Part shown: piece by piece, positions 1-61,346 of the stretch
How the letters are laid out: every line of letters starts with the position of its first letter
Position numbering within the stretch: the stretch's first letter is position 1
NCBI GenBank assembly: GCA_964473555.1
Contig: CAYYPL010000005.1
Span: 43,977 to 107,976 of the forward strand
Reading direction: 5' to 3'
Length of the DNA: 64,000 nucleotides
DNA from: an uncultured Chitinophagales bacterium
GTDB lineage: Bacteria > Bacteroidota > Rhodothermia > Balneolales > HLUCCA01
Notes under the pieces: generated by a model
The model's database searches: none
Told to the model about the DNA's origin: nothing
What the model saw: only the letters and a program-made list of their open reading frames with translations
Program-made: the position numbers and the translations under genes

Positions 1-222
1 ATCCAGTGTAATCAGAGCCAGATGGATGGCTGCGGTTCCCGAACTAAGTACCACAGCACCTTTAGTTCCGCAGTAGTCAGCCAGTTCACGCTCAAAGGCG
101 TCGACGTGCGGACCCAATGGGGCGATCCAGTTCGTGGCGAAGGCATCTGCTACCATTTCCATTTCGCGTCCGCTCATGTGCGGAGACGACATCCAGACGC
201 GTTCTTTTGTTTGGGTTTGCAT
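1..222 (-). CDS. DegT/DnrJ/EryC1/StrS-family PLP-dependent sugar aminotransferase, N-terminal fragment (gene continues past the left edge)
   Basis: Not in the ORF track because it is truncated. The reverse complement of 1..222 starts at ATG 220..222 and reads MQTQTKERVWMSSPHMSGREMEMVADAFATNWIAPLGPHVDAFERELADYCGTKGAVVLSSGTAAIHLALITLD. The pattern SSPxMxGxE...NWIAPxGPxVxxFE...SGTAAIHLAL is the conserved N-terminus of this family. Confidence 0.75.
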   Translation of the reverse strand, partial: MQTQTKERVWMSSPHMSGREMEMVADAFATNWIAPLGPHVDAFERELADYCGTKGAVVLSSGTAAIHLALITLD

Positions 223-240
223 ACGAAGAAAGATATGGTG

Positions 241-521
241 GAGCGGGCAAGCGGGCAAGCGGGTGAGCAGATTTTTGTGTACAAGGGTCAGATAGATCAC
301 AGAACAGAGTACAGAGTGCACAGTGCACAGAATACAGTACACAGAACACAGTGCACAGAACACCGAACAGAGTACACACAAAGAGTTGAACAGTTAGGTC
401 AGAGGGTAGATCAGGGGTCTCGGGTGTGTATAGTGTAATTTGGGTGTGGTAATAGGAAAGCCCTATGCGAGTTCACGGAGATTGATACCGCTAGTTTGCC
501 AGCCCGCTTGCCCGCTTATGG
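241..521. repeat. Modular simple-repeat element: GCGGGCAA arm, CACAG-heptad array, complementary CCCGCTTG arm
   Basis: 241..270 is GAGCGGGCAAGCGGGCAAGCGGGTGAGCAG. 297..380 is an array of about 12 CACAG-type heptads (ACAGAGT, GCACAGT, ACAGAAT and similar). 498..521 is GCCAGCCCGCTTGCCCGCTTATGG, the reverse-complement type of the first arm. The element lies in the divergent region between the aminotransferase start (222) and the capD-like start (849). Track ORFs 22..438(+) and 92..379(-) are read-through artefacts of it. Confidence 0.85.
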
Positions 522-2714: not shown

Positions 2715-2738
2715 CATTCAACGAAAACTATTTGACGT

Positions 2739-4055: not shown

Positions 4056-4149
4056 GTCGTGGACGTTGGGTAGTGGACGTTTGGTGGTTCACAACCCAAT
4101 TTTTTGTATATTTGAGCCTGAAACAACCACTGTAAAAACAGGCCATTTT

Positions 4150-7394: not shown

Positions 7395-7475
7395 TCGCTT
7401 GGGTTTCGGGATGTATTGTGTTCGTTGAGTATTCCTTCGCAAAAACAGACGTCCAGCTTTAAATGCCACCACGTT

Positions 7476-7634
7476 CCCTCATCCCTCATCCCTCATCCCT
7501 CATCCCTCATCGCTCATCCCTCATCGCTCATCGCTCATCGCTCATCCCTCATCGCTCCTCCCTCGTCAAAAATCTTAGCCCTGTGTACTGCAAACTGCAT
7601 CCTGCGAACTTGTGCTCTGCATACTGTGCTCTGT
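7476..7634. repeat. Modular simple-repeat element (C-rich orientation): 13 CCCTCAT/CGCTCAT heptads plus a CTGTG/CTGCG array
   Basis: 7476..7566 is 13 consecutive 7-nt units (CCCTCAT x4, then CGCTCAT/CCCTCAT mixed, ending CGCTCCT CCCTCGT). 7579..7634 is GCCCTGTGTACTGCAAACTGCATCCTGCGAACTTGTGCTCTGCATACTGTGCTCTG. The reverse complement gives the same module order (CACAG array, then GACGAGGGA + GGGATGA heptads) seen in the intragenic blocks at 15-16.7 kb. Track ORF 7416..7661 is an artefact of this element. Confidence 0.85.
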
Positions 7635-7830
7635 AATCATTGTACTGATTACTCCGAATGAAATGAGGATTCGTTGTGAAATCTGAGCACTTTCTGCAAG
7701 GATTATCATTTTCATCACTCATATATATGATCGAGGGTTTGTCGGGTGATGAAGTGTGCCACTGAGCGAACTTGTCCCCCTCCCACCTCCCTTGATCTTC
7801 ACATTCATTTAACGATCAAGAGGTTTAACC

Positions 7831-9981: not shown

Positions 9982-10079
9982 GGTAATACCGGGAGGCGGG
10001 CTTTTGCTCGCCTCTCAATATTTGTCTATTTTGAGCCGTTATCATGCTACAGTTTTCGAGGCTCTAAATAGTTTTTCCT

Positions 10080-13328: not shown

Positions 13329-13494
13329 ACGGATCCCTGTCGGTGGGATCACGCTTCAAAAGGTTGAGTCATCAGGGACCCGCTCAACGTGATTTGGATC
13401 CTTTTTGGTAAAAAACACTCGATAATCGTTCTCTTATCGGACGAACTTCTTATATTTTTCAGGAATCTGGAACTTAATTAAATAGACTGTATTT

Positions 13495-14508
13495 ATGAAA
13501 ATTTTGGTCACTGGAGGCCTTGGATACATCGGATCACACACCGTGGCTGAACTGTATCGAAATGGTCACGAAGCTGTAATCATCGACGATCTGTCCAACT
13601 CGACTCTGGACGTCTTGCCTGCGATCGAGAAATTGACAGGGACAAAAATTCCCTTTTATCAGATCGACATACTCCATGAATCGGGGCTGGAGCGCATCTT
13701 TGAACAGGAATTTCCGATCGATGGAATCATCCATTTTGCCGCGAAGAAATCCGTTTCAGAGTCTCTGGACGAGCCGTTGATCTACTATGAAAACAATATC
13801 AAAGGACTCCTGAATATCATGCGATTAGTAGAGGATTTCAACGTACCCTACCTCGTATTTTCCAGTAGTTGTACAGTCTATGGACAGCCTGAAAGCGTGC
13901 CGGTATCTGAGTCTACGCCAACAACCCGTTCTGTTACACCCTACGGTAACTCCAAGCTCATCGCTGAAATGATGCTGGAAGAGTACACCAGGCTTCGAAA
14001 AAATCTTGGTACCGTAATGCTCAGGTATTTCAATCCGGTAGGCGCCCATGAGTCGGCTTTGATCGGGGAGCTTCCACGCGGAGTCCCGGCCAACCTGATG
14101 CCGTTTATTACCCAAACAGCAGCGGGAGTCAGAGATACCCTGAAAGTTTTCGGATCCGATTACGATACCCGTGACGGTACCGCCATCCGTGACTACATCC
14201 ACGTGGTGGATTTGGCTGATGCCCATGTGAAAGCGATCGAATGGTTGCAAAAGCATCCCGGCGAGGTAGAATTTTTCAATATAGGCACAGGAAACGGACA
14301 GACAGTGCTTGAAGTCATTGATTCCTTTGAGCGCAGTACGGGTCAGAAGTTGAAATATGAACTGGTCGCGCGTCGTCAGGGTGACATTGAGCAGATTTGG
14401 GCCGACACCACCAAAGCTGACCAGGTTTTAGGCTGGAAAGCGAAGCGATCTCTCGACGAAATGACGAAAAGTGCATGGGAGTGGGAGAAAACGCTACGGG
14501 AAAAATAG
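13495..14508 (+). CDS. galE: UDP-glucose 4-epimerase
   Basis: 337 aa with MKILVTGGLGYIGSHT (GxxGxxG) and the YGNSK catalytic YxxxK. Full-length collinearity with GalE (..RYFNPVGAH.., ..DGTAIRDYIHVVDLA..). Confidence 0.95.
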   Translation: MKILVTGGLGYIGSHTVAELYRNGHEAVIIDDLSNSTLDVLPAIEKLTGTKIPFYQIDILHESGLERIFEQEFPIDGIIHFAAKKSVSESLDEPLIYYENNIKGLLNIMRLVEDFNVPYLVFSSSCTVYGQPESVPVSESTPTTRSVTPYGNSKLIAEMMLEEYTRLRKNLGTVMLRYFNPVGAHESALIGELPRGVPANLMPFITQTAAGVRDTLKVFGSDYDTRDGTAIRDYIHVVDLADAHVKAIEWLQKHPGEVEFFNIGTGNGQTVLEVIDSFERSTGQKLKYELVARRQGDIEQIWADTTKADQVLGWKAKRSLDEMTKSAWEWEKTLREK

Positions 14509-14532
14509 TGTCATAACTAGTTATTTTACTTA

Positions 14533-14590
14533 GCGTTTTCCGTTTTCCGTTCTCCGTTTTCCGTTCTCCGTTCTCAGTTCTCTGTTTTCC
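14533..14590. repeat. Heptanucleotide tandem array CCGTTTT/CCGTTCT (8 units)
   Basis: The sequence is GCGTTTT CCGTTTT CCGTTCT CCGTTTT CCGTTCT CCGTTCT CAGTTCT CTGTTTT. It starts 25 nt after the galE stop and ends 7 nt before the start of the GT-C gene. It is related to the CCGTTTTCTGT units at 17233..17289 on the other side of that gene. Confidence 0.85.
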
Positions 14591-14596
14591 ATATAT

Positions 14597-17005
14597 ATGA
14601 ACAAAGCATTTCCATATTTAGTAATCGGTTTTGTATGGTTGTTGATAGTAAATTTAATCGATCACACTGGTGAGTTTCCACTGATTGATGACTGGGCGTA
14701 TGCACATGGAGTGAAGGACTTTTTAGACGATGGGCTGCTGAAGATCTCCGATTGGGTAGCCATGACCCAGGTAGCTCACTTGTTCATGGGTGTAGCATGG
14801 GTGAAGGTGTTTGGATTCTCGCTGGAACATCTACGCGAGATGACCCTGTTGATCAGTTTTTTGGGATCCTTTGTATTCTACTGGCTAACCGGCTATTTCT
14901 CGACGCGTGTCACACACCGGCTTGTCGGGACCCTCATCATCACAGTGAATCCGATCTGGATGTATCTGAGTCATACGTTTATGACGGATGTGCCTTTTAC
15001 AACCTTATTCTTGGCTCTAATACTCATTTTAATCAAAATTGTATACCCTAAAAAAGAGTACTTAGCGCACAAAGCACAGGAAGTTCAGGAAGATCAGAGA
15101 GTACACAGCGCACAGGGCGCAGAACACAGTAAAGAGGTAGACGAGGGAAGAGGGATGAGGGATGAGAAAGAGCAGAGGCCAACGGGCGAGCGGGCAAGCG
15201 GGCAAGCAGAAGGGCTGTTTACTGGTTACCGTTTACCGTTTACAGATAACCGCTCACCGCTACTTCCCACTTCCTACTTCCTTCTACCATTGATTCTGGT
15301 ATTGAGCTCCATACTTGTTCTAATCCGCCAGACCGGACTGGGACTCGGATTTTCCTTCCTGCTGTGGGTCTTGTTGATGGACAGAGATCGGAGAGGCAGG
15401 TTTTGGGGTTTGGCGTTGGCGCTGGTGGGGGTTCAGGTGTCAACTTTGATTGGATACGAGTGGTTTATGGCCTCGATTGACGCCTTGTCGACCCGGTATC
15501 ACGGTGCCTCGAGTCTGAGCTGGATCCTGGGTCGGCCATGGTGGGTGGTCCGGGCTGCATATTACGTGCTGATCCAGTTGCAGTATCTGGGTATGTTCCT
15601 GCTTCCGTTATTACCGTTTGTGTGGATGAAGTGGAGGTCGGTGGGGGCAGGGAACTATTCCCGCTGGGCGTATATGGCGGCAGGTGTGGTGGTGTTGGGT
15701 ATGGGCGTTGCTGTGGGAGGGGATATACTGATGAATCCACGCTACACTCATTTGATGCAATACGATACCGTTGGACATGTCATGACGATCGACTTCACTT
15801 ATGAAAGGCTGGAGTTTAGTCGGAATTTGTATCCACTTTGGGTGGTTTTGCATGGGTTGGGACTGGTGAATGTGTTTATGATAGTGGTAGTGGGGAGTAG
15901 GAAGTGGGGAGTAGTAGCACGCAGTTCACCGTTCACAGTACACAGTGAAGGAATAGACGAGGGACGAGGGATGAGGGATGAGGGAGATAAGAGGCTAGCG
16001 GGCAAGCAGGCTAGTGGGCTAGCAGAAAGACAGAAAACAGTAAACAGTAAACGGATAACAGAAGGCCATTTTAGTGCAGAAGGGTCAGAAAGTACAGATC
16101 GTGCAGGGGGCAGAGATGGGGGATTCATGGGCCGTTTACCCTTTTCTGTTTACCGTTTACTGAAAACACAACGTGCGTTTGATCATCCCGTAACCTGGAT
16201 TATCCTTATTCTGGCTGGTTACACCGTTTTTATTTCCATCGGACAGTTCGTTTTTGACCGATATCTGATACTGCATTTACCTTTGTTCGTTCTACTGGTT
16301 TTGCATCTTGTACAAAGTTCACAAGTTCACTTCACGAAAACAGTAAACAGTAAACGGACAACGGAAGGTGAGCAAGCAGGCAAGCGGGAAAGCGGGATAA
16401 CGATAGTGTACAGTTCACTGGGCACAGATCGCAGTAGGGATGCTGACGAGGGACGAGGGACGAGGGATGAGCGGGTGAGGGGGCAAGCAGAGTTGGCGCA
16501 CAAAGATCAGGAAGATCAGGAAGATCAGGAAGTGCAGGAGACAGAAGAGAGTGCAGGGGCAAGGGATCAGAGTGCAGGGGCAAGGGAGCAGAGGTTAGAG
16601 AATGAAGTAGATGGGCCGTTTACCGTTTACCGTTTGCCGTTTACTCATTCTCTTATCCCTAATCCCTTATCCCTTATCTTTCTAACGCTATCACTCCTAT
16701 TCTCAATCACTGGCGTGCACGACAGCTTCAAATGGAATCGGGTTCGGTTCGGGGCTATCGAACAACTTGAGGCCCAAGGAATCAGTCCGCATCAAATAGA
16801 CGGTGGAGCGGAATACAATTCGTGGCAACGCACCGGTCCGATTCAACCCTTACGCCTGAATGAGAAAAGCTGGTGGTATGTAGATGGGGACGATTATGCT
16901 ATTGCACACGAAGAGATCCCTGGATACAAACGCATCGCAGCGTTTCCGTTTACAAGATATTATGGGCTGGAGAGTGACACACTTTACATCGTTCAAAGAA
17001 AGTAG
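14597..17005 (+). CDS. GT-C-fold polytopic membrane glycosyltransferase (ArnT/PMT_2-like) carrying three in-frame repeat-derived insertions
   Basis: An uninterrupted 802-aa ORF with many hydrophobic helices. An acidic DD motif sits in the first loop (FPLIDDWAYAHG), as in GT-C enzymes, and there is a soluble C-terminal domain (about aa 700-802). Three charged low-complexity loops are encoded by repeat blocks at 15065..15288, 15884..16160 and 16337..16678. The family call is by pattern only. Confidence 0.65.
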   Translation: MNKAFPYLVIGFVWLLIVNLIDHTGEFPLIDDWAYAHGVKDFLDDGLLKISDWVAMTQVAHLFMGVAWVKVFGFSLEHLREMTLLISFLGSFVFYWLTGYFSTRVTHRLVGTLIITVNPIWMYLSHTFMTDVPFTTLFLALILILIKIVYPKKEYLAHKAQEVQEDQRVHSAQGAEHSKEVDEGRGMRDEKEQRPTGERASGQAEGLFTGYRLPFTDNRSPLLPTSYFLLPLILVLSSILVLIRQTGLGLGFSFLLWVLLMDRDRRGRFWGLALALVGVQVSTLIGYEWFMASIDALSTRYHGASSLSWILGRPWWVVRAAYYVLIQLQYLGMFLLPLLPFVWMKWRSVGAGNYSRWAYMAAGVVVLGMGVAVGGDILMNPRYTHLMQYDTVGHVMTIDFTYERLEFSRNLYPLWVVLHGLGLVNVFMIVVVGSRKWGVVARSSPFTVHSEGIDEGRGMRDEGDKRLAGKQASGLAERQKTVNSKRITEGHFSAEGSESTDRAGGRDGGFMGRLPFSVYRLLKTQRAFDHPVTWIILILAGYTVFISIGQFVFDRYLILHLPLFVLLVLHLVQSSQVHFTKTVNSKRTTEGEQAGKRESGITIVYSSLGTDRSRDADEGRGTRDERVRGQAELAHKDQEDQEDQEVQETEESAGARDQSAGAREQRLENEVDGPFTVYRLPFTHSLIPNPLSLIFLTLSLLFSITGVHDSFKWNRVRFGAIEQLEAQGISPHQIDGGAEYNSWQRTGPIQPLRLNEKSWWYVDGDDYAIAHEEIPGYKRIAAFPFTRYYGLESDTLYIVQRK
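15065..15288. repeat. Intragenic repeat block 1 (CACAG / GACGAGGGA-GGGATGA / GCGGGCAA / CCGTTTA / CTACTTCC modules)
   Basis: 15065..15130 holds CACAG-type units. 15137..15166 is GTAGACGAGGGAAGAGGGATGAGGGATGAG. 15185..15209 is GGCGAGCGGGCAAGCGGGCAAGCAG. 15215..15243 is CTGTTTACTGGTTACCGTTTACCGTTTAC. 15260..15288 is CTACTTCCCACTTCCTACTTCCTTCTACC. The block translates in frame as ..AHKAQEVQEDQRVHSAQGAEHSKEVDEGRGMRDEKEQRPTGERASGQAEGLFTGYRLPFTDNRSPLLPTSYFLLP. Confidence 0.85.
15884..16160. repeat. Intragenic repeat block 2 (GGGAGT-GGAAGT / CACAG / GACGAGGGA-GGGATGA / GCGGGCAA / GTAAACA ... CCGTTTA modules)
   Basis: 15884..15917 is GTGGTAGTGGGGAGTAGGAAGTGGGGAGTAGTAG. 15917..15947 holds CACAG-type units. 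15953..15985 is ATAGACGAGGGACGAGGGATGAGGGATGAGGGA. 15992..16024 is GGCTAGCGGGCAAGCAGGCTAGTGGGCTAGCAG. 16034..16054 is AAAACAGTAAACAGTAAACGG. 16132..16160 is CCGTTTACCCTTTTCTGTTTACCGTTTAC. The block translates in frame as ..GSRKWGVVARSSPFTVHSEGIDEGRGMRDEGDKRLAGKQASGLAERQKTVNSKRITEG...GRLPFSVYRLL. Confidence 0.85.
16337..16678. repeat. Intragenic repeat block 3 (GTAAACA / GCAAGCGGG / CACAG / GACGAGGGA / 9-mer x3 / 21-mer x2 / CCGTTTA / CTTATCCC modules)
   Basis: 16337..16357 is AAAACAGTAAACAGTAAACGG. 16367..16396 is the GCAAGC/GCGGG arm. 16442..16490 is GCTGACGAGGGACGAGGGACGAGGGATGAGCGGGTGAGGGGGCAAGCAG. 16505..16533 is GATCAGGAA x3, encoding DQEDQEDQE. 16548..16589 is a 21-nt unit AGAGTGCAGGGGCAAGGGAKC x2. 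16616..16644 is CCGTTTACCGTTTACCGTTTGCCGTTTAC. 16644..16678 is CTCATTCTCTTATCCCTAATCCCTTATCCCTTATC. The frame stays open throughout. Confidence 0.85.
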
Positions 17006-17008
17006 TAA

Positions 17009-17289
17009 GTGCACAGTGCACAGTACGCAGAGCACAGTGCCACAGAACGCAGTGCACAGTGCACAGTACGCAGAACGCAGAGCACAGTGCACAGTACGCA
17101 GAGCACAGTGCACAGTACGCAGAGCACAGTGCCACAGAACGCAGTGCACAGAGCACAGTACGCAGTACGCAGAGCACAGTACGCAGTACGCAGAGCACAG
17201 TACGCAGTACGCAGAGCACAGAGCACAGACCACCGTTTTCTGTATACCGTTTTCTGTATACCGTTTTCCGTTTACCGTTTTCTGTTTAC
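17009..17289. repeat. Long CACAG-type heptad array (about 30 units) followed by CCGTTTTCTGT units
   Basis: 17009..17228 is tandem GCACAGT / ACGCAGA / GCACAGA / ACGCAGT units (consensus RCRCAGW), starting 4 nt after the stop of the GT-C gene. 17233..17289 is CCGTTTTCTGTATA x2, then CCGTTTTCCGTTTACCGTTTTCTGTTTAC. The stop codon of the convergent GT2 gene (17286..17288) lies in the last unit. Six track ORFs, one per frame, run through it. Confidence 0.9.
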
Positions 17290-18023
17290 TTCAGTATGAA
17301 ATACTTCAGAATCCCCCATTTGTGGAGACGGAAGCGAAGGGAAGTATGGAGCACTCCGAATCCGTAGGTGACCGACCGACGAAAACTGATGGAGGAGGCT
17401 TCTTCAAAGTAGCGCGTCGGACAACTGATCTCCCCAAATCGTGCTCCTTTATGGTGCAACTGGATCAATATCTGATTATCAAATACAAAATCATCGCTGT
17501 TTACCATCCATTTCCTGTCTTCCAGGATCTCGCGGCTGAACGCACGGTAACCCGTATGATACTCACTGAGTTTTTGTCCAATAAGGATGTTCTGCAGTAA
17601 AGTGAGTATCCGATTCGCCACATACTTGTATCTTGGCATGCCCCCTTTCAGGGCGCCCATCCCCAGAATTCGGGATCCCAATACCACATCATATACGCCG
17701 GATGTGATCATCGCAGCCATCGCTGTGGTGAGTTTCGGATCATACTGGTAGTCGGGATGTAACATGATGATGACATCGGCACCCGTGTCAAGCGCTACCT
17801 GGTAACAGGTTTTCTGATTGCCTCCATAACCCTGATTGGACTCGTGACGGACACAAATGAGTCCGAGTTTATTGGCCAATTCAAAGGTGTTGTCTTTGCT
17901 GAAATCATCAACCAGGATAATCTCATCTACGAAGCCGGAAGGAATGTCGGCTATGGTGCGTTCCAGAGTTTTTCCTGCATTATAGGCCGGAAGTACAATT
18001 GCGATTTTTTTGTTGTTTAACAT
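17286..18023 (-). CDS. Family 2 glycosyltransferase (polyprenyl-phosphate sugar synthase type, DPM1/ArnC-like)
   Basis: 245 aa. The N-terminus is KIAIVLPAYNAGKTLERTI...VDDFSKDNT (GT-A fold with DxD-type acidic motif). It also has ..DVIIMLHPDYQYDP.. and a size typical of the DPM1/ArnC subgroup. Confidence 0.85.
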   Translation of the reverse strand: MLNNKKIAIVLPAYNAGKTLERTIADIPSGFVDEIILVDDFSKDNTFELANKLGLICVRHESNQGYGGNQKTCYQVALDTGADVIIMLHPDYQYDPKLTTAMAAMITSGVYDVVLGSRILGMGALKGGMPRYKYVANRILTLLQNILIGQKLSEYHTGYRAFSREILEDRKWMVNSDDFVFDNQILIQLHHKGARFGEISCPTRYFEEASSISFRRSVTYGFGVLHTSLRFRLHKWGILKYFILK

Positions 18024-24049: not shown

Positions 24050-24077
24050 AAATCCCTAATCTATTATCATCTAAACT

Positions 24078-24106
24078 AAAAAAGGCGCCTTTCAGCGCCT
24101 TTTTTA
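24078..24106. terminator. Bidirectional rho-independent terminator
   Basis: The sequence is AAAAAAGGCGCCTTTCAGCGCCTTTTTT. It forms a GC stem (AAAGGCGC / GCGCCTTT) with a 6-nt loop, flanked by an A-run and a T-run. It lies between the convergent genes 23165..23926(+) and 24109..26328(-). Confidence 0.8.
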
Positions 24107-24108
24107 GT

Positions 24109-30797: not shown

Positions 30798-31089
30798 GGG
30801 ATAACAGAAAAGGGAAATGAGTATGGCGAGCGGTTAGGCAGTGGGGAATTGAGGGATTTGAATTTTGGACTCCTATTTTTTTCGAAGAAAAAAACTCATC
30901 AGACAATATATTTCACAAAACGAAGAAAAGATTAAATTGGTGAGCTGAAAGCGGCGAGAAGTGGAGCAGGCTAGCGGTCAGGAAATGGGGAATGAGAAGT
31001 TCACTTACGAGCAACGTTCTCAAACTTCATTCTAGACCCTTATATATGATTTCCGCTTGCAATTCGAACCCTCAACCCAACTCCCATTT
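30798..31089. repeat. Degenerate modular element (G-rich left arms, complementary C-rich right arm)
   Basis: 30798..30860 is GGGATAACAGAAAAGGGAAATGAGTATGGCGAGCGGTTAGGCAGTGGGGAATTGAGGGATTTG. 30951..31000 is GCGGCGAGAAGTGGAGCAGGCTAGCGGTCAGGAAATGGGGAATGAGAAGT. 31051..31089 is TTCCGCTTGCAATTCGAACCCTCAACCCAACTCCCATTT, which is complementary in type to the left arm. Confidence 0.4.
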
Positions 31090-34727: not shown

Positions 34728-34730
34728 ACG

Positions 34731-34765
34731 AAAAAAGCCACTCAGCGTTAACTGAGAGGCTTTTT
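34731..34765. terminator. Bidirectional rho-independent terminator (copy 1 of a duplicated hairpin)
   Basis: The sequence is AAAAAAGCCACTCAGCGTTAACTGAGAGGCTTTTT. It forms a 9-bp stem with one mismatch, flanked by an A-run and a T-run, between the convergent genes 32535..34727(+) and 34810..35310(-). Confidence 0.8.
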
Positions 34766-35998: not shown

Positions 35999-36221
35999 GG
36001 TACCTCGATATGTTCAAAAAAGCGTCACACAAATCTGCCTACAACTTCGTTATAATCAGAGTATTTGTTTCTGCACCTACGTTACGATTCAAGAATAAAC
36101 TAAATATGTACAATATAGACACTTAATCATTAATTACGAATTAAGTGATACTAAATATAAAAGAATTTTAATAATTAAACCTCAAACTATCATTTTAAAT
36201 ATAGTAATCCGACTATTTCAC

Positions 36222-36252
36222 AAAAAAAGCCCCCCAGCGTTAACTGAGAGGC
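36222..36252 (-). terminator. Rho-independent terminator of the tRNA gene (copy 2 of the duplicated hairpin)
   Basis: The minus strand reads GCCTCTCAGTTAACGCTGGGGGGCTTTTTTT. The 9-bp stem includes two G-U pairs and is followed by 7 T. It begins 14 nt downstream of the tRNA 3' end. Confidence 0.75.
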
Positions 36253-36265
36253 TTTATTACTCAAG

Positions 36266-45204: not shown

Positions 45205-45915
45205 ATGATGTATTCACTTATTCTACTTGCGTCAACGATTCAGCCAGGTGACGTTGTCGGGTTTACTTTTTTCATCGGTACAATGGCCATGTTGGCAGCT
45301 ACCGTATTTTTCTTTCTGGAGAGAAATTCGGTGTCTGAAAAATGGAGATTATCGCTGACCGTTTCTGGATTGATCACAGGTATTGCCGCTGTGCATTACT
45401 ACTACATGCGTGATTACTACCTGACGATGGGTTCTAGTCCGACAGAACTTCGTTACATCGACTGGACACTTACAGTTCCGCTGATGTGTATTGAGTTCTA
45501 CTTACTTACCCGACCATACGGTGCTAAGGCTCAGACTCTTTTCGCATTGATCCTTGCGTCTGTAGGTATGTTGGTAACAGGTTACATCGGAGAAGCGATA
45601 CAGCCAGATCAGACGATTCTTTGGGGAACAGTATCTACTGCGTTCTATCTGTACATCGTTTATGAAGTATTCTTCGGTAGCGTTGCCAAACTTTCTGAAG
45701 GCTCAGACAATCCAGCGCTCAAGCATGCCATGTTCCTCATGAAGATTTTCATCACGCTGGGCTGGTCTATTTATCCAATCGGATACATGACGATGCCTGG
45801 AAACCTGCTTGATGGAATGGGTAACATCGATGTGTTCTACAACATCGCTGATGCGATCAACAAGATCGGATTCGGACTTGTTGTGTATTCTGTAGCGGTT
45901 TCTTCTTCTAAGTAA
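45205..45915 (+). CDS. Proteorhodopsin-family light-driven proton pump (DTE motif)
   Basis: 236 aa with 7 TM helices. Helix C is RYIDWTLTVPLMCIEF, giving D86/T90/E97, equivalent to D97/T101/E108 of green proteorhodopsin. Met94 sits at the spectral-tuning position (105). His64 corresponds to H75. Helix G is FYNIADAINKIGFGL, with counter-ion D216 and Schiff-base K220. Confidence 0.93.
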   Translation: MMYSLILLASTIQPGDVVGFTFFIGTMAMLAATVFFFLERNSVSEKWRLSLTVSGLITGIAAVHYYYMRDYYLTMGSSPTELRYIDWTLTVPLMCIEFYLLTRPYGAKAQTLFALILASVGMLVTGYIGEAIQPDQTILWGTVSTAFYLYIVYEVFFGSVAKLSEGSDNPALKHAMFLMKIFITLGWSIYPIGYMTMPGNLLDGMGNIDVFYNIADAINKIGFGLVVYSVAVSSSK

Positions 45916-45975
45916 TTAGTCCGAAGTACTACACTTTGATTTTAGGGGCGTCTCTGCAAAGAGAAGCCCCTTTTT

Positions 45976-46902
45976 TTATTTGCGGTAGGTGGTGTAAAGT
46001 TTCTGAACAACATACATGTGTGGCAATGTGAGCACACTGATAGCAGCAAATAGAAGCGACACCAGATACTTTTCCTGCCCAAAGGCATTCGTCATATTAT
46101 ACACCAGCAGAATTCCCAGATAGGATAACAGGGAGTAGATAAAGGATTCCCTGTAGAACCACCCGAAATTCAACCGGGTTGTTTCATCACTGAGATAGGA
46201 AAGCATGACTCGTACATGGTTGAAGGAATGCCAGAGTCCGAAGTAGATTGAAAATGCCCAGACAGGGTCGGCGAACATAAACAGGACTGAAACACTGACA
46301 GCATCCAGGAAAAAAACGATAACATGTTTCCATCCAAAAGAATGAAACGAAGCAATTCCTAGAAACACGATCGGATAAAAAGCCGCGATTCCCCAGGTGA
46401 TCCACTCTGGATTTATCCGCTGGATCGTAAAATCCAGGAGTGAAAATCCAGTAATAGACTCAATTACGGCAGACGAATAGGCCAAATCTCCGTAAGCGAT
46501 AAGTCCAACAACGGTAAACCCACGGGAAAAATGGATGAGATGCTTCTTCCAGCCCGACAACTCAAATCGTTCTGCATCCGCTTGTCCAAAATGATACCAG
46601 GTTATCACCATAAAAAAAGCGAACGAGAACAGCGGATACCAGACCCACATCAAGGAATACATGCCCACCAACCCAAGGTACCAGCTATAAAACCAAACTT
46701 TCTTGCGTAGATCACCCTGCCATTGATCCATCTTTTCCGAAATGATGTGATCTATCGCTCCGTGAGGCATGCCAACTAGGAGAATGACCAGGGCGAGTAG
46801 GTAATACCGGCTGTTATAGGTGAAATCCGGTGCAAACAAGCTGATTAAAACGACCAGTAGACCGACTGCGGATTGTAATAAAAGACGAGAGTAAAGTGCC
46901 AT
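45976..46902 (-). CDS. blh: Brp/Blh-family beta-carotene 15,15'-dioxygenase (retinal synthesis)
   Basis: 308 aa, polytopic. It has conserved His-containing motifs (LVGMPHGAIDH, WYHFGQAD, GLWHSFNH, LTLPHM). It is convergent with and adjacent to the rhodopsin gene. Confidence 0.85.
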   Translation of the reverse strand: MALYSRLLLQSAVGLLVVLISLFAPDFTYNSRYYLLALVILLVGMPHGAIDHIISEKMDQWQGDLRKKVWFYSWYLGLVGMYSLMWVWYPLFSFAFFMVITWYHFGQADAERFELSGWKKHLIHFSRGFTVVGLIAYGDLAYSSAVIESITGFSLLDFTIQRINPEWITWGIAAFYPIVFLGIASFHSFGWKHVIVFFLDAVSVSVLFMFADPVWAFSIYFGLWHSFNHVRVMLSYLSDETTRLNFGWFYRESFIYSLLSYLGILLVYNMTNAFGQEKYLVSLLFAAISVLTLPHMYVVQKLYTTYRK

Positions 46903-47865: not shown

Positions 47866-49182
47866 ATGACTCTTGCCTATGATCTTAGCCGAAATGTACA
47901 TCGAATTACGTTGTACAACACCATTGCTGCTGACCAGCAGCACACCAGCGTGCGTCCGCGTTTGTACCTGCATCTGGACATGAACTGTTTTTATGCGCAG
48001 GTTGAGCAGGTTTCGTATGGACTTTTTGGCCTTCCGGTGATTGTGGGAGGATGGCGCAAGGAAGACGGTACGGCGCGGGGTATTGTGGCCACGTCCAGCT
48101 ATGAAGCCCGGAAACTGGGTATCAAAACCGCGATGAGTGCCTTCGAAGCCACCCAGATTTGTCCGTATATCGTGTTTATGCAGGTCCATTACGAGAAGTA
48201 TCAGGCCATATCGAAGGAAATCCGGGCTATACTCGACCGGTATTCTCCGGATGTGGAAAGTTACTCGATGGATGAGTTTTTTATGGACATCACCTTCATG
48301 CTGAAACGTCCCAGGGCCGAGATCGAAGCCATGGCCATGCGCCTGAAAAACGAGGTGTATGCGGGCACGGGACTCCTGTGCTCGGTTGGGGTGTCGTATT
48401 CGAAAACCTATGCCAAGTTGTGTTCAGATCTGCAGAAACCCAACGGCCTCACCTGTGTGTTCGACCAGGACATGGCCCGTGAGCGGTTGTATCCGTTACC
48501 GCTCAAAGAAGTATGGGGCATTGGAAGTCGGCGCTACGTAAAGTTGCAGTCCCGTGGGTTGCATACCATTGGTGACGCCATCCAACGGGGGCGTGGTGCG
48601 TTCAGGGAGTTGTTCGGAGACTATTTTGGCAAAATGCTGTTCGAGACAGTCACCGGACAAGATCGTGCCAAAGTTACGGACACCACGCTGCACACCCCCA
48701 GGGAAGTCAGTTATATGCACACGTTTTCGGACTGGAGTGATGATCCGCTGGCCATAGAAGGAGAGATTTCCAAGGCGGTGAGTCAGTTATGTTACCGCAT
48801 GCGTGGATACCGGCGCAAGGCGGTCAAGTATGCGGGATATATCCGGTTTCAGGACGTAGACTGGAAAGGGATTTCGTTCGTGTTCAACACCCCGGGCGAG
48901 ACCAACCTCGACGACTACGTGCTGGAAGCATGTCTGCAAACAGCCATGCCGTTGCTGCATAAGTTTTTGCGTGAGGGACACAAGATCCGGGGTATTGGTC
49001 TGCACACCATTGCTCTGACCGAAGGCAACCAGATGGATCTGTTCTTCCGTGAAGACGAGAAAATATCCGGCCTCTATCAGGCCATCGATCACTTAAACAA
49101 CCGCTTCGGGCTGGACACCGTTTTGCCCGCGGCCAAACAACACGACGTAAAAGGGAAAACGCACTTTCTTGAACGCAACTGA
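47866..49182 (+). CDS. dinB: Y-family DNA polymerase (DNA polymerase IV-like)
   Basis: The track ORF is 47743..49182, and ATG 47866 (MTLAYDL...) is more likely. Conserved motifs are LHLDMNCFYAQVEQ, VATSSYEARKLGIKTAM and SMDEFFMDIT (catalytic acidic residues). Little-finger region: VGVSYSKTYAKLCSDLQKPNG. Confidence 0.88.
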   Translation: MTLAYDLSRNVHRITLYNTIAADQQHTSVRPRLYLHLDMNCFYAQVEQVSYGLFGLPVIVGGWRKEDGTARGIVATSSYEARKLGIKTAMSAFEATQICPYIVFMQVHYEKYQAISKEIRAILDRYSPDVESYSMDEFFMDITFMLKRPRAEIEAMAMRLKNEVYAGTGLLCSVGVSYSKTYAKLCSDLQKPNGLTCVFDQDMARERLYPLPLKEVWGIGSRRYVKLQSRGLHTIGDAIQRGRGAFRELFGDYFGKMLFETVTGQDRAKVTDTTLHTPREVSYMHTFSDWSDDPLAIEGEISKAVSQLCYRMRGYRRKAVKYAGYIRFQDVDWKGISFVFNTPGETNLDDYVLEACLQTAMPLLHKFLREGHKIRGIGLHTIALTEGNQMDLFFREDEKISGLYQAIDHLNNRFGLDTVLPAAKQHDVKGKTHFLERN

Positions 49183-49224
49183 CCGACGCGACGCTTGCGT
49201 CTCGCATCAGTTGCGTTCAAGAAA
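49165..49224. other. Long perfect hairpin (18-bp stem plus inner stem) spanning the polymerase stop codon
   Basis: TTTCTTGAACGCAACTGA (49165..49182, including the TGA stop at 49180..49182) is the exact reverse complement of TCAGTTGCGTTCAAGAAA (49207..49224). The 24-nt loop CCGACGCGACGCTTGCGTCTCGCA can itself pair (GCGACGC / GCGTCTCGC). No T-run follows. Confidence 0.8.
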
Positions 49225-49345
49225 AGTAAACAGAAACCGGTAAACAGTAAACAGCCCATCGGGGTGGTGAGTGAATGTACCGCTCGCTGCTTGCCGCTCA
49301 CAGCTTACTGCATGGTCGTTTACTGTTTACTGTTTACTGTTTACG
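49225..49345. repeat. Modular element: GTAAACA arm / core with CTTGCCGC fragment / CTGTTTA arm
   Basis: 49225..49255 is AAGTAAACAGAAACCGGTAAACAGTAAACAG. 49280..49300 is CCGCTCGCTGCTTGCCGCTCAC. 49316..49345 is GTCGTTTACTGTTTACTGTTTACTGTTTACG. The two outer arms are complementary heptad arrays about 60 nt apart. Confidence 0.85.
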
Positions 49346-49363
49346 CTCGCGGAGCGAGCTCAT

Positions 49364-49624
49364 ATGCAACCAGAAAAAATTAATGTCATAGCCTCTTTTG
49401 CCGGATTCACCACGCCCAAGCAGAAGAACCGAATCGTGCCGCACCGGTTTCTGACCCGGAAAGGGGATACGCATGTCATTGCCACGGTGCGACGCACCTA
49501 CACCGAGCGGGTGGGAGACAGTCAGCACGTGCATTTCGTGGTCCAGACCCGCGAGGGACGCCTCTTCGACATCGTCTACGACAGTAAACAGATCTGCTGG
49601 TTGATGGTTTTGGAGTTGGAATGA
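49364..49624 (+). CDS. Small hypothetical protein downstream of the Y-family polymerase
   Basis: 86 aa from ATG 49364: MQPEKINVIASFAGFTTPKQKNRIVPHRFLTRKGDTHVIATVRRTYTERVGDSQHVHFVVQTREGRLFDIVYDSKQICWLMVLELE. The track ORF 49271..49624 begins inside the repeat. It is beta-rich and bracketed by repeat elements. It vaguely recalls small proteins or domains found next to Y-family polymerases, but this is an unverified recollection. Confidence 0.4.
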   Translation: MQPEKINVIASFAGFTTPKQKNRIVPHRFLTRKGDTHVIATVRRTYTERVGDSQHVHFVVQTREGRLFDIVYDSKQICWLMVLELE

Positions 49625-49627
49625 ACC

Positions 49628-49758
49628 GTGAGCGGCGAGCAGGTAGCAAACAAGCGGGCTAGCAGGTGAGCCGTAAATACTTGTGCACGGAGGTCAGAAA
49701 GAACAGAAAGTGCAGATGTGTAGGGGGCAGGGTACCGCTTGCCTGCTTGCCCGCTTGC
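49628..49758. repeat. Modular element: GCGRGCAAG-type arm / CACAG-like core / CTTGCCCGC arm
   Basis: 49628..49671 is GTGAGCGGCGAGCAGGTAGCAAACAAGCGGGCTAGCAGGTGAGC. The core is GTGCACGGAGGTCAGAAAGAACAGAAAGTGCAGATGTG. 49735..49758 is CCGCTTGCCTGCTTGCCCGCTTGC, the complementary type. The element starts 4 nt after the small-ORF stop and lies upstream of tRNA-Leu. Confidence 0.85.
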
Positions 49759-49832
49759 AAAGACATAGATAGGTATTAACGCAGATCAGATATTGCGAGC
49801 GTTGAGTATTTATCCGTATATTTTAGCTCTAC

Positions 49833-49916
49833 GCCGAAGTGGTGGAATTGGTAGACGCGCACGTTTCAGGGGCGTGTGAGGGCAACCTCCTGTGGGTTCG
49901 AGTCCCACCTTCGGCA
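49833..49916 (+). tRNA. tRNA-Leu (CAG)
   Basis: The sequence is GCCGAAG TG GTGGAATTGGTAGACGCG CACGT TTCAGGG GCGTG TGAGGGCAACCTCCTGT GTGGG TTCGAGT CCCAC CTTCGGC A. It is an 84-nt class II tRNA with a long variable arm (GAGG-GCAA-CCTC) and anticodon CAG. Confidence 0.93.
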
Positions 49917-49924
49917 CTTGAAAG

Positions 49925-59013: not shown

Positions 59014-59034
59014 GAAGCGGGGAGCAGTATTTTA

Positions 59035-59206
59035 GGGAGTGGGAAGTAGGGAGTGGGAAGTAGGAAGTAGGGAGTGGGGAGTGGGGAGTCGGAATGATTT
59101 TCTACTTCACTGAATTTTACAGATATTAAGACAATGTGGTTGGTTATTTCTATCGTATGGGATTATTGTCATAAATCTACTACCCATTTCCTACTTCCAA
59201 CTACCC
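59035..59206. repeat. Modular element: GGGAGTG/GGAAGTA heptad arm (8 units) / AT-rich core / complementary CTACTTCC arm
   Basis: 59035..59093 is GGGAGTG GGAAGTA GGGAGTG GGAAGTA GGAAGTA GGGAGTG GGGAGTG GGGAGTC GG. 59177..59206 is CTACTACCCATTTCCTACTTCCAACTACCC. It contains TTCCTACTTCC, the exact complement of GGAAGTAGGAA in the left arm. The element starts 22 nt after the FolB-cupin stop and ends 42 nt before the peptidase ATG. Confidence 0.88.
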
Positions 59207-59247
59207 AAAGTTTAATTGACTTAACCCAAAATCTAAACGTATCTACT

Positions 59248-61281: not shown

Positions 61282-61310
61282 TCTACCTTCTTTCTGAATA
61301 CCAAGCGCAT

Positions 61311-61346
61311 AAAAAAAGGCCGACTCCTAACGGAGCCGGCCTTTTT
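61311..61346. terminator. Bidirectional rho-independent terminator
   Basis: The sequence is AAAAAAAGGCCGACTCCTAACGGAGCCGGCCTTTTT. It forms a 10-bp GC-rich stem with one mismatch, flanked by an A-run and a T-run, between the convergent peptidase and SusD-like genes. Confidence 0.8.

What the first reader, a model, noticed from the sequence alone, without database searches (positions are those of the whole stretch)
49225..49758. Simple-repeat arms occur as inverted pairs flanking a unique core (long imperfect hairpins)
In 49225..49345 a (GTAAACA)n arm faces a (CTGTTTA)n arm about 60 nt away. In 49628..49758 a GCGRGCAAG-type arm faces CCGCTTGCCTGCTTGCCCGCTTGC about 60 nt away. The same architecture is seen at 241-270 versus 498-521 (GCGGGCAAGCGGGCAAGCGGG / CCCGCTTGCCCGCTT). 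It is seen at 59035-59093 versus 59177-59206, with an exact 11-nt complement GGAAGTAGGAA / TTCCTACTTCC. It is seen in intragenic block 2 (16034-16054 versus 16132-16160), block 3 (16337-16357 versus 16616-16644) and, more weakly, at 30826-30860 versus 31051-31089. Because the arms are tandem repeats, pairing can slide into several registers. That feature is unusual compared with classical REP or MITE terminal inverted repeats. Such structures could act as RNA 3' stabilisers, protein-binding sites, recombination substrates or replication-slippage hotspots.
Basis: seen in the sequence. Interest (0 to 1): 0.62.

Follow-up and report, generated by a model that had tools for sequence, protein, structure and literature searches.

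The report
Hairpins whose arms are tandem repeats
The gaps between genes in this soda-lake bacterium (order Balneolales) hold 7-8-base tandem repeats arranged as mirror-image pairs that fold into long, slidable hairpins; the pattern is real and non-random, but the same layout was already described in Xanthomonas and its function is still unknown.

Summary
At 49226-49252/49318-49344, (GTAAACA)n faces (GTTTACT)n (27 nt, 89% complementary). At 49651-49675/49733-49757, a GCGGGCAA-type arm faces (TTGCCCGC)n (25 nt, 84%). Both fold better than shuffles as RNA and as DNA. Five of the six other claimed pairs are confirmed; 30826/31051 is not.

These are islands of 7-9-nt simple-sequence repeats. Across 247 arrays, inverted partners outnumber direct ones 48 to 9. 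The 5' arm is purine-rich in 35 of 53 hairpins and pyrimidine-rich in 7. Related genomes keep a hairpin at the same site but use different repeat units.

Three islands lie in frame inside a GT39-like glycosyltransferase gene and encode disordered loops that homologs lack.

No conserved core, transposase or T-tract terminator was found.

Most likely origin: replication slippage plus inverted-copy template switching, in transcribed spacers where a stem-loop is tolerated or useful. This is inferred, not shown.

Convergent inverted pairs of heptamer repeats are already reported for Xanthomonas GGGAATC repeats (PMC4692102). So this is a new member of a known kind. The polarity rule and the mosaic of repeat families are the less ordinary parts.

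The parts
49165..49224 (.). Perfect 18-bp hairpin. The 5' arm (49165-49182) is the last five codons plus the stop codon of the Pol IV-like gene. The 3' arm (49207-49224) is its inverted copy. It sits directly before the first simple-repeat arm.
   Evidence: I5: 18 nt, 100%. Compared with L001, five synonymous differences in the coding arm (GAACGCAACTGA vs GAGAGGAATTAA) are all mirrored in the 3' arm.
49225..49254 (.). Purine-rich 5' arm, (GTAAACA)n with one variant unit.
   Evidence: period 7, 4.3 copies; I1.
49255..49317 (.). Core of hairpin 1. It holds a nested stem (GGTGGTGAGTG/CGCTCAC) and a pyrimidine-rich CCGCTCACAGCTTG-type array at 49280-49306.
   Evidence: (I2) pairs 49282-49312 with 49617-49647 across the small ORF.
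49318..49344 (.). Pyrimidine-rich 3' arm, (GTTTACT)x3.9, perfect repeat.
   Evidence: 100% matches; I1.
49345..49359 (.). Mini-hairpin GCTCGCGGAGCGAGC, 4 nt before the start codon of the small ORF. It is conserved in all strains examined.
49364..49624 (+). Conserved 86-aa ORF bracketed by the two hairpins. It has no known family.
   Evidence: the identical protein on 14 contigs; no Pfam or NCBIfam hit.
49628..49675 (.). Purine-rich 5' arm of hairpin 2 (GTGAGCGGCGAGCAGGTAGCAAACAAGCGGGCTAGCAGGTGAGC; degenerate GCGGGCAA family). It starts 4 nt after the ORF stop codon.
   Evidence: I3, I13.
49676..49732 (.). Core of hairpin 2. It carries the shared purine-rich module GGTCAGAAAGAACAGAAAGTGCAG..GGGGGCAGGG.
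   Evidence: compared with 16085-16115 and with L002/L004.
49733..49758 (.). Pyrimidine-rich 3' arm, (CCGCTTGC)x3.
   Evidence: (I3).
242..517 (.). Island in a divergent spacer: (AGCGGGCA)2.8, then a (CACAGTA)-family array at 298-378, a core, then (GCCCGCTT)2.
   Evidence: Fold z -4.0/-4.5.
59031..59209 (.). Island between the FolB-like and peptidase S9 genes: (GGGAGTG/GGAAGTA)n arm at 59031-59089 facing a CTACTACCCATTTCCTACTTCC arm at 59177-59209.
   Evidence: 33 nt, 82%. Fold z -5.0 on the + strand.
15053..15290 (+). In-frame repeat block 1 inside the GT39-like gene. Purine-rich arrays (CAGGAAGAT, CACAGNG, GAGGGAT, GCGGGCAA) are followed by pyrimidine-rich arrays (GTTTACC, CTACTTC).
   Evidence: Only the gene's own frame is open. 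Residues 182-224 have pLDDT <50.
15870..16162 (+). In-frame repeat block 2, with arms 16031-16059 and 16134-16162.
   Evidence: Residues 440-514 have pLDDT <50.
16315..16690 (+). In-frame repeat block 3, with arms 16338-16364 and 16616-16642 plus an inner pair 16576-16605/16645-16674.
   Evidence: Residues 578-684 have pLDDT <50.
17008..17289 (.). Convergent spacer made entirely of repeats: a 220-nt (GCACAGT/ACGCAGA)n purine-rich array, then a (CCGTTTT/CTGTTTA)n pyrimidine-rich array. The two belong to different unit families.
   Evidence: Fold z -1.2 (+) and -5.4 (-).
14534..14590 (.). (CGTTCTC/CGTTTTC)x8 array ending 7 nt before the GT39-like start codon. A weak purine-rich partner (GGGAGAAAACG) lies in the 3' end of the upstream gene.
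7475..7640 (.). Pyrimidine-rich island: (TCCCTCA/TCGCTCA)x13, then a degenerate TACTGTG-type tract. It has no clear partner.

Best explanation
The two arm pairs at 49225-49345 and 49628-49758 belong to a genome-wide population of islands of 7-9-nt simple-sequence repeats. Each island has purine-rich arrays first and pyrimidine-rich arrays second. Where the same unit family sits on both sides, either strand, as RNA or as single-stranded DNA, folds into a long imperfect hairpin whose register can slip by whole units.

Proposed mechanism. The islands are written and continually rewritten by replication errors.
- Slipped-strand mispairing adds and removes units.
- Template switching of the growing strand lays down an inverted copy of what was just made, and copies modules between islands.

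The islands persist where extra sequence is tolerated. That means transcribed spacers that start a few bases after a stop codon and end a few bases before the next start codon, and three disordered loops of one membrane glycosyltransferase. At gene ends they probably act as, or replace, the stem-loop that marks or protects an mRNA 3' end.

Shown: the structures exist and exceed chance; orientation and polarity are biased; unit families turn over between relatives while the architecture is kept; modules are shared between islands; the intragenic islands stay in frame.

Inferred: the slippage and template-switch mechanism, and any role in RNA.
For: 1. Period 7 dominates the tandem repeats: 19 period-7, 7 period-8 and 5 period-9 arrays among the window's 39 merged arrays, and 398 of about 800 arrays in 794 kb of metagenome loci.

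2. Inverted partners outnumber direct partners 48 to 9.

3. The architecture is kept while the units are replaced.
- In the dinB-ORF86 spacer, the window, L004 and L009 use GTAAACA/TGTTTAC. L001, L006 and L011 use GATAAGA-GAGAAGG/CTTATCC. L002, L005, L007 and L008 use GAAAGTG units mixed with mini-hairpins.
- In more distant relatives the convergent spacer after dinB is a hairpin of (GGAATCG)n/(CGATTCC)n in L016 and of (GTAGACC)n/(GGTCTAC)n in L018 and L040.
- All of these fold at z -2.5 to -9.4.

4. Growth in place. L001 has the same layout as L011 but with both arms and the centre expanded. L004, whose flanks are 98% identical to the window, differs by the same T-to-C change in several right-arm units.

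5. An inverted copy of unique sequence sits next door. The 3' arm of 49165-49224 mirrors the dinB coding end and tracks five synonymous changes in it.

6. Modules are copied between islands. Blocks 1 and 2 share 147 nt at 72%. Blocks 2 and 3 share 33 nt at 94% and 35 nt at 89%. The junction TTACTGCATGGYCGTTTAC occurs at 49300-49323 and also upstream of the GT39 homolog in L093.

7. Arrays with inverted partners are enriched in convergent spacers and depleted in divergent ones: 10, 9 and 2 for convergent, tandem and divergent, against 20%, 53% and 27% of spacer bases.

8. The same layout and the same between-species behaviour were reported for Xanthomonas GGGAATC repeats.
Against: - No step of the mechanism was observed. 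No within-population copy-number variation was seen, because the only near-identical contigs come from the same strain.
- Slippage plus template switching does not by itself predict why the purine-rich arm is 5' in 35 hairpins against 7.
- The shared repeat vocabulary and the three paralogous blocks in one gene could equally reflect a mobile element.
- Keeping a hairpin at one site over genus-level divergence could be selection rather than mutation bias.
- Gene contexts rest on crude ORF maps, and two arrays were counted per hairpin, so the context enrichment rests on few independent cases.
Confidence: 0.5

Rival explanations
1. The hairpins are selected RNA elements. They would be stem-loops in 3' untranslated or intra-operon spacers that block 3' exonucleases, end or insulate transcripts in both directions, and are built from repeats so their length can be tuned. 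The origin by slippage is the same as in the best explanation. The difference is that the structure is kept by selection rather than regenerated by mutation.
For: - A hairpin is kept at the same gene boundary across about 75-98% flank identity even though the units are replaced.
- The neighbouring hairpin 49165-49224 shows five compensated changes.
- Arms start 0-20 nt after stop codons.
- Arrays with inverted partners are enriched in convergent spacers and depleted in divergent ones.
- Purine-rich 5' and pyrimidine-rich 3' is also the layout of the canonical A-tract/T-tract bidirectional terminators in this window.
Against: - There is no T-tract, and no terminator-like site is called at the hairpins.
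- Islands also lie in a divergent spacer (242-517) and inside a coding gene.
- Many purine-then-pyrimidine neighbours belong to non-complementary unit families.
- Arms drift by within-array homogenisation without compensation in the other arm (L004).
- The + and - strand RNAs fold equally well on average.
- About 80% of (GTAAACA)n arrays in metagenomes have no partner.
Confidence: 0.3
2. The islands are non-autonomous mobile palindromic elements, comparable to MITE, REPIN or Rickettsia palindromic elements. Their terminal inverted repeats happen to be tandem repeats, and they are moved by an enzyme encoded elsewhere in the genome.
For: - The same repeat vocabulary and some unique junctions recur at unrelated loci and in different strains.
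- Three paralogous composite blocks sit in frame in one gene.
- Empty sites exist in relatives L012-L014.
- In L149, two hairpins share about 35-nt arms including the same variant unit but have different loops.
- The distribution across lineages is patchy.
Against: - Cores are unrelated between copies.
- Module order differs between islands.
- No target-site duplications or fixed termini were noticed, although this was not searched systematically.
- Orthologous sites are filled with different content rather than being either full or empty.
- L001 compared with L011 shows growth from within.
- No transposase or HUH nuclease appears among the 32 window proteins scanned directly or in the gene tables of related contigs.
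Confidence: 0.12
3. The islands are scars of break repair. Both 3' ends of a double-strand break are lengthened by repeated addition of a purine-rich unit, either by iterative slippage of a repair polymerase or by a templated, telomerase-like activity. The ends are then joined. This automatically gives purine-rich repeats on the left, pyrimidine-rich repeats on the right, and an inverted pair whenever both ends used the same unit.
For: - It is the only model considered that predicts the polarity directly: 35 against 7 hairpins, and 48 against 16 adjacent-array transitions.
- It also predicts polarity for non-complementary neighbours, such as 17008-17228 followed by 17232-17289 and 15183-15207 followed by 15217-15259.
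- It fits insertions into coding loops and nested layouts.
Against: - No such enzyme is known or was found here.
- Two identical purine-rich 3' tails cannot anneal to each other, so the joining step is ad hoc.
- Purine-rich halves are often far longer than pyrimidine-rich halves (17008-17289; L093 downstream spacer).
- The polarity is a strong bias, not a rule (7 of 53 hairpins are reversed).
Confidence: 0.06
4. The arrays are contingency loci. Gain or loss of a 7- or 8-nt unit would switch or tune expression of surface-polysaccharide genes (phase variation).
For: - Five islands plus the three intragenic blocks lie in the polysaccharide biosynthesis cluster at 1-20 kb.
- One array ends 7 nt before the GT39-like start codon, and the L093 ortholog has a very different array at that position.
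- Units that are not multiples of three would shift the reading frame.
Against: - The hairpins named in the finding flank a Pol IV-like gene, a small ORF, a tRNA and a FolB-like gene. None of these is a surface gene.
- The intragenic arrays are short (2-4 units), imperfect, and kept in frame in two diverged strains.
- Phase variation needs no inverted partner and no polarity.
- Rehm et al. reached the same negative view for Xanthomonas.
Confidence: 0.07

Closest known systems
GGGAATC heptamer repeats of Xanthomonas campestris and X. axonopodis, including their 'convergent' inverted pairs (Rehm et al. 2015, PLoS One, PMC4692102)
   Same: - Tandem 7-nt units spread over the genome, mostly in non-coding DNA.
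- 70-75 cases per genome of two arrays close together on opposite strands in convergent orientation, able to form stem-loops or cruciforms.
- Between species, pair versus single status is kept while length and sequence vary.
- Under-represented between divergent genes.
- Function unknown.
- Relatives L016 and L017 even use the same unit.
   Different: - Xanthomonas has essentially one G-tract unit, which was studied as a G-quadruplex former.
- This genome uses at least seven unit families (GTAAACA, GCGGGCAA, CACAGTA, GAGGGAT, GGAAGTA, CAGGAAGAT, GAGAACG), most without G-tracts.
- The families are combined into mosaics, sometimes with non-complementary halves, and three islands are translated.
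Short tandemly repeated repetitive (STRR) heptamers of heterocystous cyanobacteria, and TAACTGA repeats of Beggiatoaceae, cyanobacteria and some Bacteroidetes (MacGregor 2015, PMC4679880); long simple sequence repeats in the sense of Mrazek et al. 2007
   Same: - Lineage-specific bursts of 7-nt tandem arrays in intergenic DNA.
- Several unit families per genome.
- Patchy phylogenetic distribution with no known spreading mechanism (STRR from my own knowledge).
- Metagenome loci retrieved here mix (CAGTAAA)n with (CTGATAA)n arrays.
   Different: - TAACTGA arrays are mostly single, oriented with the downstream gene and placed just before start codons. Only one inverted case was reported.
- Inverted pairing and purine/pyrimidine polarity were not described for these repeats.
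REP/BIME and REPIN elements with their RAYT transposases
   Same: Imperfect palindromes in transcribed spacers and at gene ends. They are abundant per genome and able to stabilise upstream mRNA.
   Different: - REPs are fixed 20-40-nt units with a conserved head and many near-identical copies.
- They are tied to a RAYT gene.
- Here the arms are variable tandem arrays, the cores are unrelated, and no RAYT was seen.
Rickettsia palindromic elements, and tandem repeats of Borg elements that create disordered protein regions (PMC9879509, seen)
   Same: Repeat-derived DNA inserted in frame into protein-coding genes and tolerated as surface or disordered segments. Here that means three loops of the GT39-like protein.
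   Different: - Rickettsia palindromic elements are discrete consensus elements of 100-150 bp.
- Borg repeats have unit lengths that are multiples of three.
- Here the inserts are mosaics of 7-9-nt arrays and only the gene's own frame is open.
Quasipalindrome correction and inverted duplication by replication template switching
   Same: This process makes one arm a copy of the other. It would explain the inverted copy of the dinB coding end and arms that mirror variant units, as in L149.
   Different: It is a mutational process, not a sequence family. It was not observed here and it does not predict the polarity.

Membership tests
Long simple-sequence repeats / heptamer SSR inverted pairs (Xanthomonas type) | Head-to-tail tandem copies of a 5-11-nt unit (here 7-9 nt), at least 2-3 copies | tested here: met
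   for example 49318-49344 has period 7, 3.9 copies, 100% matches; 49735-49758 has period 8, 3 copies; 7475-7564 has 12.9 copies; 17008-17228 has 31 copies.
Long simple-sequence repeats / heptamer SSR inverted pairs (Xanthomonas type) | Period 7 over-represented among tandem repeats, with a bias to non-coding DNA | tested here: met
   Searches give the period spectra; in about 1.4 Mb sampled, the only true intragenic islands are in one gene.
Long simple-sequence repeats / heptamer SSR inverted pairs (Xanthomonas type) | Two arrays of the same unit close together on opposite strands in convergent orientation | tested here: met
   Inverted against direct partners 48 to 9. Purine-rich arm 5' in 35 hairpins against 7.
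Long simple-sequence repeats / heptamer SSR inverted pairs (Xanthomonas type) | Same site occupied in related genomes, with length and sequence variable | tested here: met
Long simple-sequence repeats / heptamer SSR inverted pairs (Xanthomonas type) | G-tract unit able to form a G-quadruplex (four or more G3 runs) | tested here: not met
   GTAAACA has no G-tract, and 49628-49675 has a single GGG. Some other families (GAGGGAT, GGGAGTG) do have G3 runs. Nothing was tested biophysically.
REP / REPIN with RAYT | A fixed 20-40-nt imperfect palindrome present in many near-identical copies | tested here: not met
   the repeat families are arrays and modules at 60-94% identity, with no fixed unit. Arms differ in unit and copy number.
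REP / REPIN with RAYT | A cognate HUH (Y1) transposase gene | tested here: inconclusive
   None among the 32 window proteins scanned directly or in the gene tables. Only 64 kb of the genome was available, and not every window protein was covered.
MITE | Conserved internal sequence and fixed terminal inverted repeats within a family | tested here: not met
   Cores of (GTAAACA)n hairpins are unrelated. Module order varies between islands.
MITE | Target-site duplications flanking the insertion | not tested
   None was noticed at the dinB spacer or the gene blocks, but no systematic search was made. The empty-site relatives are too diverged.
Rickettsia-palindromic-element-like in-frame inserts | Repeat element inserted in frame in a protein-coding gene and absent from homologs | tested here: met
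   homologs of 537-575 aa lack all three blocks; 0 stops in the gene's frame against 3.6-6.7 expected; the blocks are low-confidence coil.
Rickettsia-palindromic-element-like in-frame inserts | Discrete consensus element of about 100-150 bp with strong palindromic folding | tested here: not met
   The blocks are 238-376 nt mosaics sharing 72-94% only in parts. Fold z is only -1.2 to -3.4.
Intrinsic (Rho-independent) terminator | G+C-rich stem followed directly by a T-tract | tested here: not met
   One search finds no terminator-like site at 49225-49344 or 49628-49758. Canonical terminators exist elsewhere in the window, for example 24072-24108 and 61310-61345.
Phase-variation (contingency) repeats | Unit-number polymorphism within a population that switches a reading frame or promoter | not testable with these tools
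   Only same-strain contigs were recovered. Read-level data would be needed.
Known RNA families (Rfam) | Match to a curated covariance model | tested here: not met
   only two tRNAs reach gathering score in the 64-kb window.

The most novel reading that the evidence does not exclude
The purine-first, pyrimidine-second polarity cannot come from the direction of replication or transcription, because the reverse complement of such a palindrome has the same polarity. It also holds for neighbouring arrays that are not complementary. It could therefore be the signature of a specific, still unknown DNA-synthesis process active in scattered bacterial lineages (Balneolales, the organism of L149, Xanthomonas, perhaps cyanobacteria). 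Candidates are template switching triggered after a purine-rich repeat has been made, or repeat addition to both 3' ends of a break. Such a process would write mosaic repeat palindromes into spacers and occasionally into protein loops.
Probability: 0.15. Interest if true: 0.75.

Novelty: new member of a known kind. Interest (0 to 1): 0.4.

Why it matters
Heptamer repeat arrays are among the commonest unexplained repeats in bacterial genomes. This window shows them in Balneolota, where my literature searches found no report. The set here is unusually rich: several unit families, paired as hairpins at orthologous gene boundaries, and three translated copies inside one membrane enzyme.

If the hairpins act on RNA, they are a terminator or stabiliser class that standard predictors miss. 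If they are mutational by-products, the strand-symmetric polarity is a measurable fingerprint that could identify the enzyme or repair defect responsible. That question has been open for cyanobacteria and Xanthomonas since the 1990s and 2000s.

On the practical side, these arrays break short-read assemblies (L214 ends at one) and generate spurious ORFs such as 22-438 and 17009-17299.

Tried and rejected
- Rfam at gathering thresholds returned only tRNAs.
- A partner test based on exact 9-mers was too strict for imperfect arms. I replaced it with ungapped local scores.
- I looked for unit-number differences between near-identical strains at three islands. All recovered contigs were the same strain and identical.
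- I compared + and - strand folding energies of 53 hairpins to look for selection on one transcript. There was no consistent asymmetry.
- The terminator and promoter scan found no T-tract terminator at the hairpins. It found only a promoter-like site before tRNA-Leu.
- RAYT/transposase idea: no such domain among the 32 window proteins scanned directly, nor in the gene tables of related contigs.
- MITE idea: cores are unrelated.
- Frame-neutral-element idea for the gene blocks: rejected, because only the gene's own frame is open.
- A literature search for the cyanobacterial 'small dispersed repeats' paper found nothing searchable in the library.
- The intrastrand-triplex paper was not pursued.
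- The 30826/31051 pair was rejected.
Full report
**What is at the coordinates**

The finding lies downstream of a Y-family (Pol IV-like) polymerase gene at 47866-49182. After its stop codon come, in order:
- a perfect 18-bp hairpin whose 5' arm is the end of the coding sequence (49165-49224);
- a (GTAAACA)n arm (49225-49254);
- a 63-nt core;
- a perfect (GTTTACT)x3.9 arm (49318-49344);
- a mini-hairpin;
- a conserved 86-aa ORF (49364-49624);
- a degenerate GCGGGCAA-type arm (49628-49675);
- a 57-nt core;
- a (CCGCTTGC)3 arm (49733-49758);
- tRNA-Leu (49833-49917).

The two arm pairs are 27 nt at 89% and 25 nt at 84% complementary. The first pair is reported in five registers, so pairing does slide.

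**Is it more than chance?**

Yes.
- RNA folds give z -5.7 for 49184-49363 and -2.7 for 49625-49770.
- DNA-parameter folds of the arms alone, on both strands, give z -4.0, -4.0, -3.1 and -2.7, with 0 of 200 shuffles as good.
- The window has 6 strong inverted-repeat loci against 0.1 expected from dinucleotide shuffles.

The pair at 30826/31051 is not: no inverted repeat is found there and the spacer folds at z about 0.

**Orientation test**

Across 247 arrays in the window and 90 related loci, 48 have an inverted partner within 350 nt and 9 have a direct one.

I also scanned metagenomes for (GTAAACA)~3 on either strand, which is a strand-symmetric sample. Of 96 arrays with full flanks, 14 have the inverted partner downstream, 2 have it upstream, and about 80% have none.

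**Polarity**

The 5' arm is purine-rich in 35 of 53 hairpins, pyrimidine-rich in 7, and intermediate in 11. Adjacent arrays go purine-to-pyrimidine 48 times and the reverse 16 times. These counts include pairs of unrelated unit families.

The reverse complement of such a palindrome has the same polarity. So the direction of replication or transcription cannot be the cause, and hairpin stability alone does not predict it. This is the main unexplained point.

**Organism and relatives**

The best genome matches are Balneolales metagenome-assembled genomes from soda or saline lakes. The closest has 95% Pol IV protein identity. Bacteroidetes bacterium HLUCCA01 has 87%.

The density of period-7 arrays is patchy across lineages:
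- about 3 per 10 kb in the window, in strains sharing the 86-aa protein, and in L016-L018 and L040;
- 0 in 90 kb of L011-L015;
- 0.4 per 10 kb in the remaining 1 Mb.

**Cross-strain evidence**

In genomes encoding the identical 86-aa protein, the same spacer carries different unit families, always as an inverted pair:
- GTAAACA in the window, L004 and L009;
- GATAAGA/GAGAAGG in L001 and L006 (and in L011, whose ORF is a diverged ortholog);
- GAAAGTG mixed with mini-hairpins in L002, L005, L007 and L008.

In relatives at about 75% protein identity, where the next gene is convergent, the spacer is a hairpin of (GGAATCG)n in L016 or of (GTAGACC)n in L018 and L040. All of these fold at z -2.5 to -9.4.

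Flank identity puts the rate in context. L004 has 98% identical flanks; its spacer 1 is 97% identical and its spacer 2 is 83%. In L001 and L002, at 86-88% flank identity, the spacers are replaced outright. Turnover is therefore by replacement, by expansion (L001 compared with L011), and by within-array homogenisation (L004). It is not by classic compensatory point changes.

The neighbouring unique hairpin does show covariation. Five synonymous differences at the dinB end between the window and L001 are all mirrored in the 3' arm.

**Intragenic blocks**

ORF 14597-17005 is a GT39-like membrane protein. Its distant homologs carry PF13231. The three repeat blocks are insertions that are absent from homologs of 537-575 aa. 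In nearer relatives the same three loop sites hold inserts of other lengths and sequences (L093).

Only the gene's own frame is free of stop codons through each block: 0 stops against 3.6-6.7 expected, while the other frames have 1-11. AlphaFold2 gives pLDDT below 50 and no secondary structure at residues 182-224, 440-514 and 578-684. The rest of the protein is mostly confident helices.

The blocks are partly paralogous to one another, at 72-94% identity over 33-147 nt. In about 1.4 Mb sampled, this is the only gene with such islands.

**What it is not**

- No Rfam family matches.
- The hairpins have no T-tract terminator, although canonical bidirectional terminators exist elsewhere in the window.
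- There is no fixed REP unit and no conserved MITE core.
- No transposase or HUH nuclease appears among the 32 window proteins scanned directly or in the gene tables of related contigs.
- No strand preference is seen in RNA folding.

**What it is like**

Rehm et al. (PMC4692102) described GGGAATC heptamer repeats in Xanthomonas. They found 70-75 convergent inverted pairs per genome, preservation of pair type between species despite changes in length and sequence, depletion between divergent genes, and no known function. MacGregor (PMC4679880) described TAACTGA arrays in other phyla. The architecture is therefore known.

What is new here:
- the lineage;
- the many unit families combined into mosaics;
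- the quantified polarity;
- the translated copies.

**Mechanism**

The best reading, at confidence about 0.5, is replication slippage plus inverted-copy template switching, acting in transcribed spacers and tolerant protein loops. A stem-loop role at mRNA ends is probable but unproven.

Rivals:
- selected RNA elements (0.3; this overlaps with the best reading);
- mobile palindromic elements (0.12);
- phase-variation repeats (0.07);
- break healing by repeat addition (0.06).

**Caveats**

- Gene maps outside the window are crude ORF maps.
- Hairpins contribute two arrays each to some counts.
- Several loci are the same site in different strains.
- Array lengths in short-read assemblies may be collapsed, although three islands are identical in independent assemblies.

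Noticed in passing
window 49165-49224: The stop codon of the Pol IV-like gene sits inside a perfect 18-bp hairpin whose 3' arm is an inverted copy of the last five codons. Compared with L001, five synonymous differences (GAA>GAG, CGC>AGG, AAC>AAT, TGA>TAA) are all compensated in the 3' arm.
   Followed up: partly
window 49364-49624: An 86-aa ORF directly downstream of the Pol IV-like gene. It is identical on 14 metagenome contigs and syntenic in L011-L015. It has no Pfam or NCBIfam match, so it may be an unrecognised partner of the polymerase.
   Followed up: partly
L001 10262-10410 (also L006 and L009, downstream of the 86-aa ORF): Arrays with a period of about 21 nt. Each period is a heptamer (GAGAACG-like) plus a 12-14-nt mini-hairpin (for example GCGGCGATGCCGC or ATGGCTAACGCCAT). 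They are followed by (TTGCCCGC)7 or (GTTCTCC)n. Similar mini-hairpins are interleaved in both arms of the L002/L005/L007 spacer.
   Followed up: no
window 1-20300: A surface-polysaccharide gene cluster (Polysacc_synt_2, UDP-glucose dehydrogenase, two Wzi-like proteins, epimerase, GT39-like, GT2, Bac_transf). It holds most of the repeat islands in the window: 242-517, 7475-7640, 14534-14590, three intragenic blocks, and 17008-17289.
   Followed up: partly
L093 2650-3000 compared with window 14509-14596: The spacer before the GT39-like gene is 88 nt with (CGTTCTC)8 in the window. In the related strain it is about 360 nt with (ACTGTGA)13(ACTGTGT)5 and an outer GTAAACA/GTTTAC pair. The downstream spacers also differ completely.
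   Followed up: partly
L016 11308-11378 and 13103-13145; L017 3310-3340 and 5007-5049: These Balneolales relatives use GGGAATC/GGAATCG arrays. This is the same heptamer as the Xanthomonas repeat of Rehm et al.
   Followed up: no
L149 (Ga0206902_10019) 1161-13699: An unidentified metagenome contig with at least seven repeat-arm hairpins in 13.7 kb. They use several unit families (GTAAACA, CACAAAGAT, AAATCTG, CGCAAAGG) and all have the purine-rich arm first. Two share about 35-nt arms including the same variant unit but have unrelated loops.
   Followed up: partly
L011-L015: The closest genome-database relatives (84-95% Pol IV protein identity) have no period-7 array of >=18 nt in 90 kb. The window and L016-L018 have about 3 per 10 kb. 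Repeat proliferation is therefore lineage-specific and patchy.
   Followed up: partly
L214, end of contig (corresponds to window ~14570): A short-read contig of the same strain stops 60 nt after the epimerase gene, inside the (CGTTCTC)n array. These repeats fragment assemblies. They also create spurious ORFs such as window 22-438, 92-379 and 17009-17299.
   Followed up: partly
window 34728-34763 and 36220-36255: Two 36-nt A-tract/stem/T-tract terminator-like hairpins are 92% identical to each other although 1.5 kb apart.
   Followed up: no
window 45205-46902: A rhodopsin gene (Bac_rhodopsin, 236 aa) lies next to a convergent beta-carotene dioxygenase-like gene (BCD). This suggests a light-driven pump with its own retinal supply.
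   Followed up: no
L028, L036-L038, L042, L045, L046: Records labelled Opitutales or Cerasicoccus (Verrucomicrobiota) carry a Pol IV-like gene 61-65% identical to this Balneolales one. Several Balneolales-like MAGs are labelled Chitinophagales. This points to gene transfer or to doubtful bin labels.
   Followed up: no
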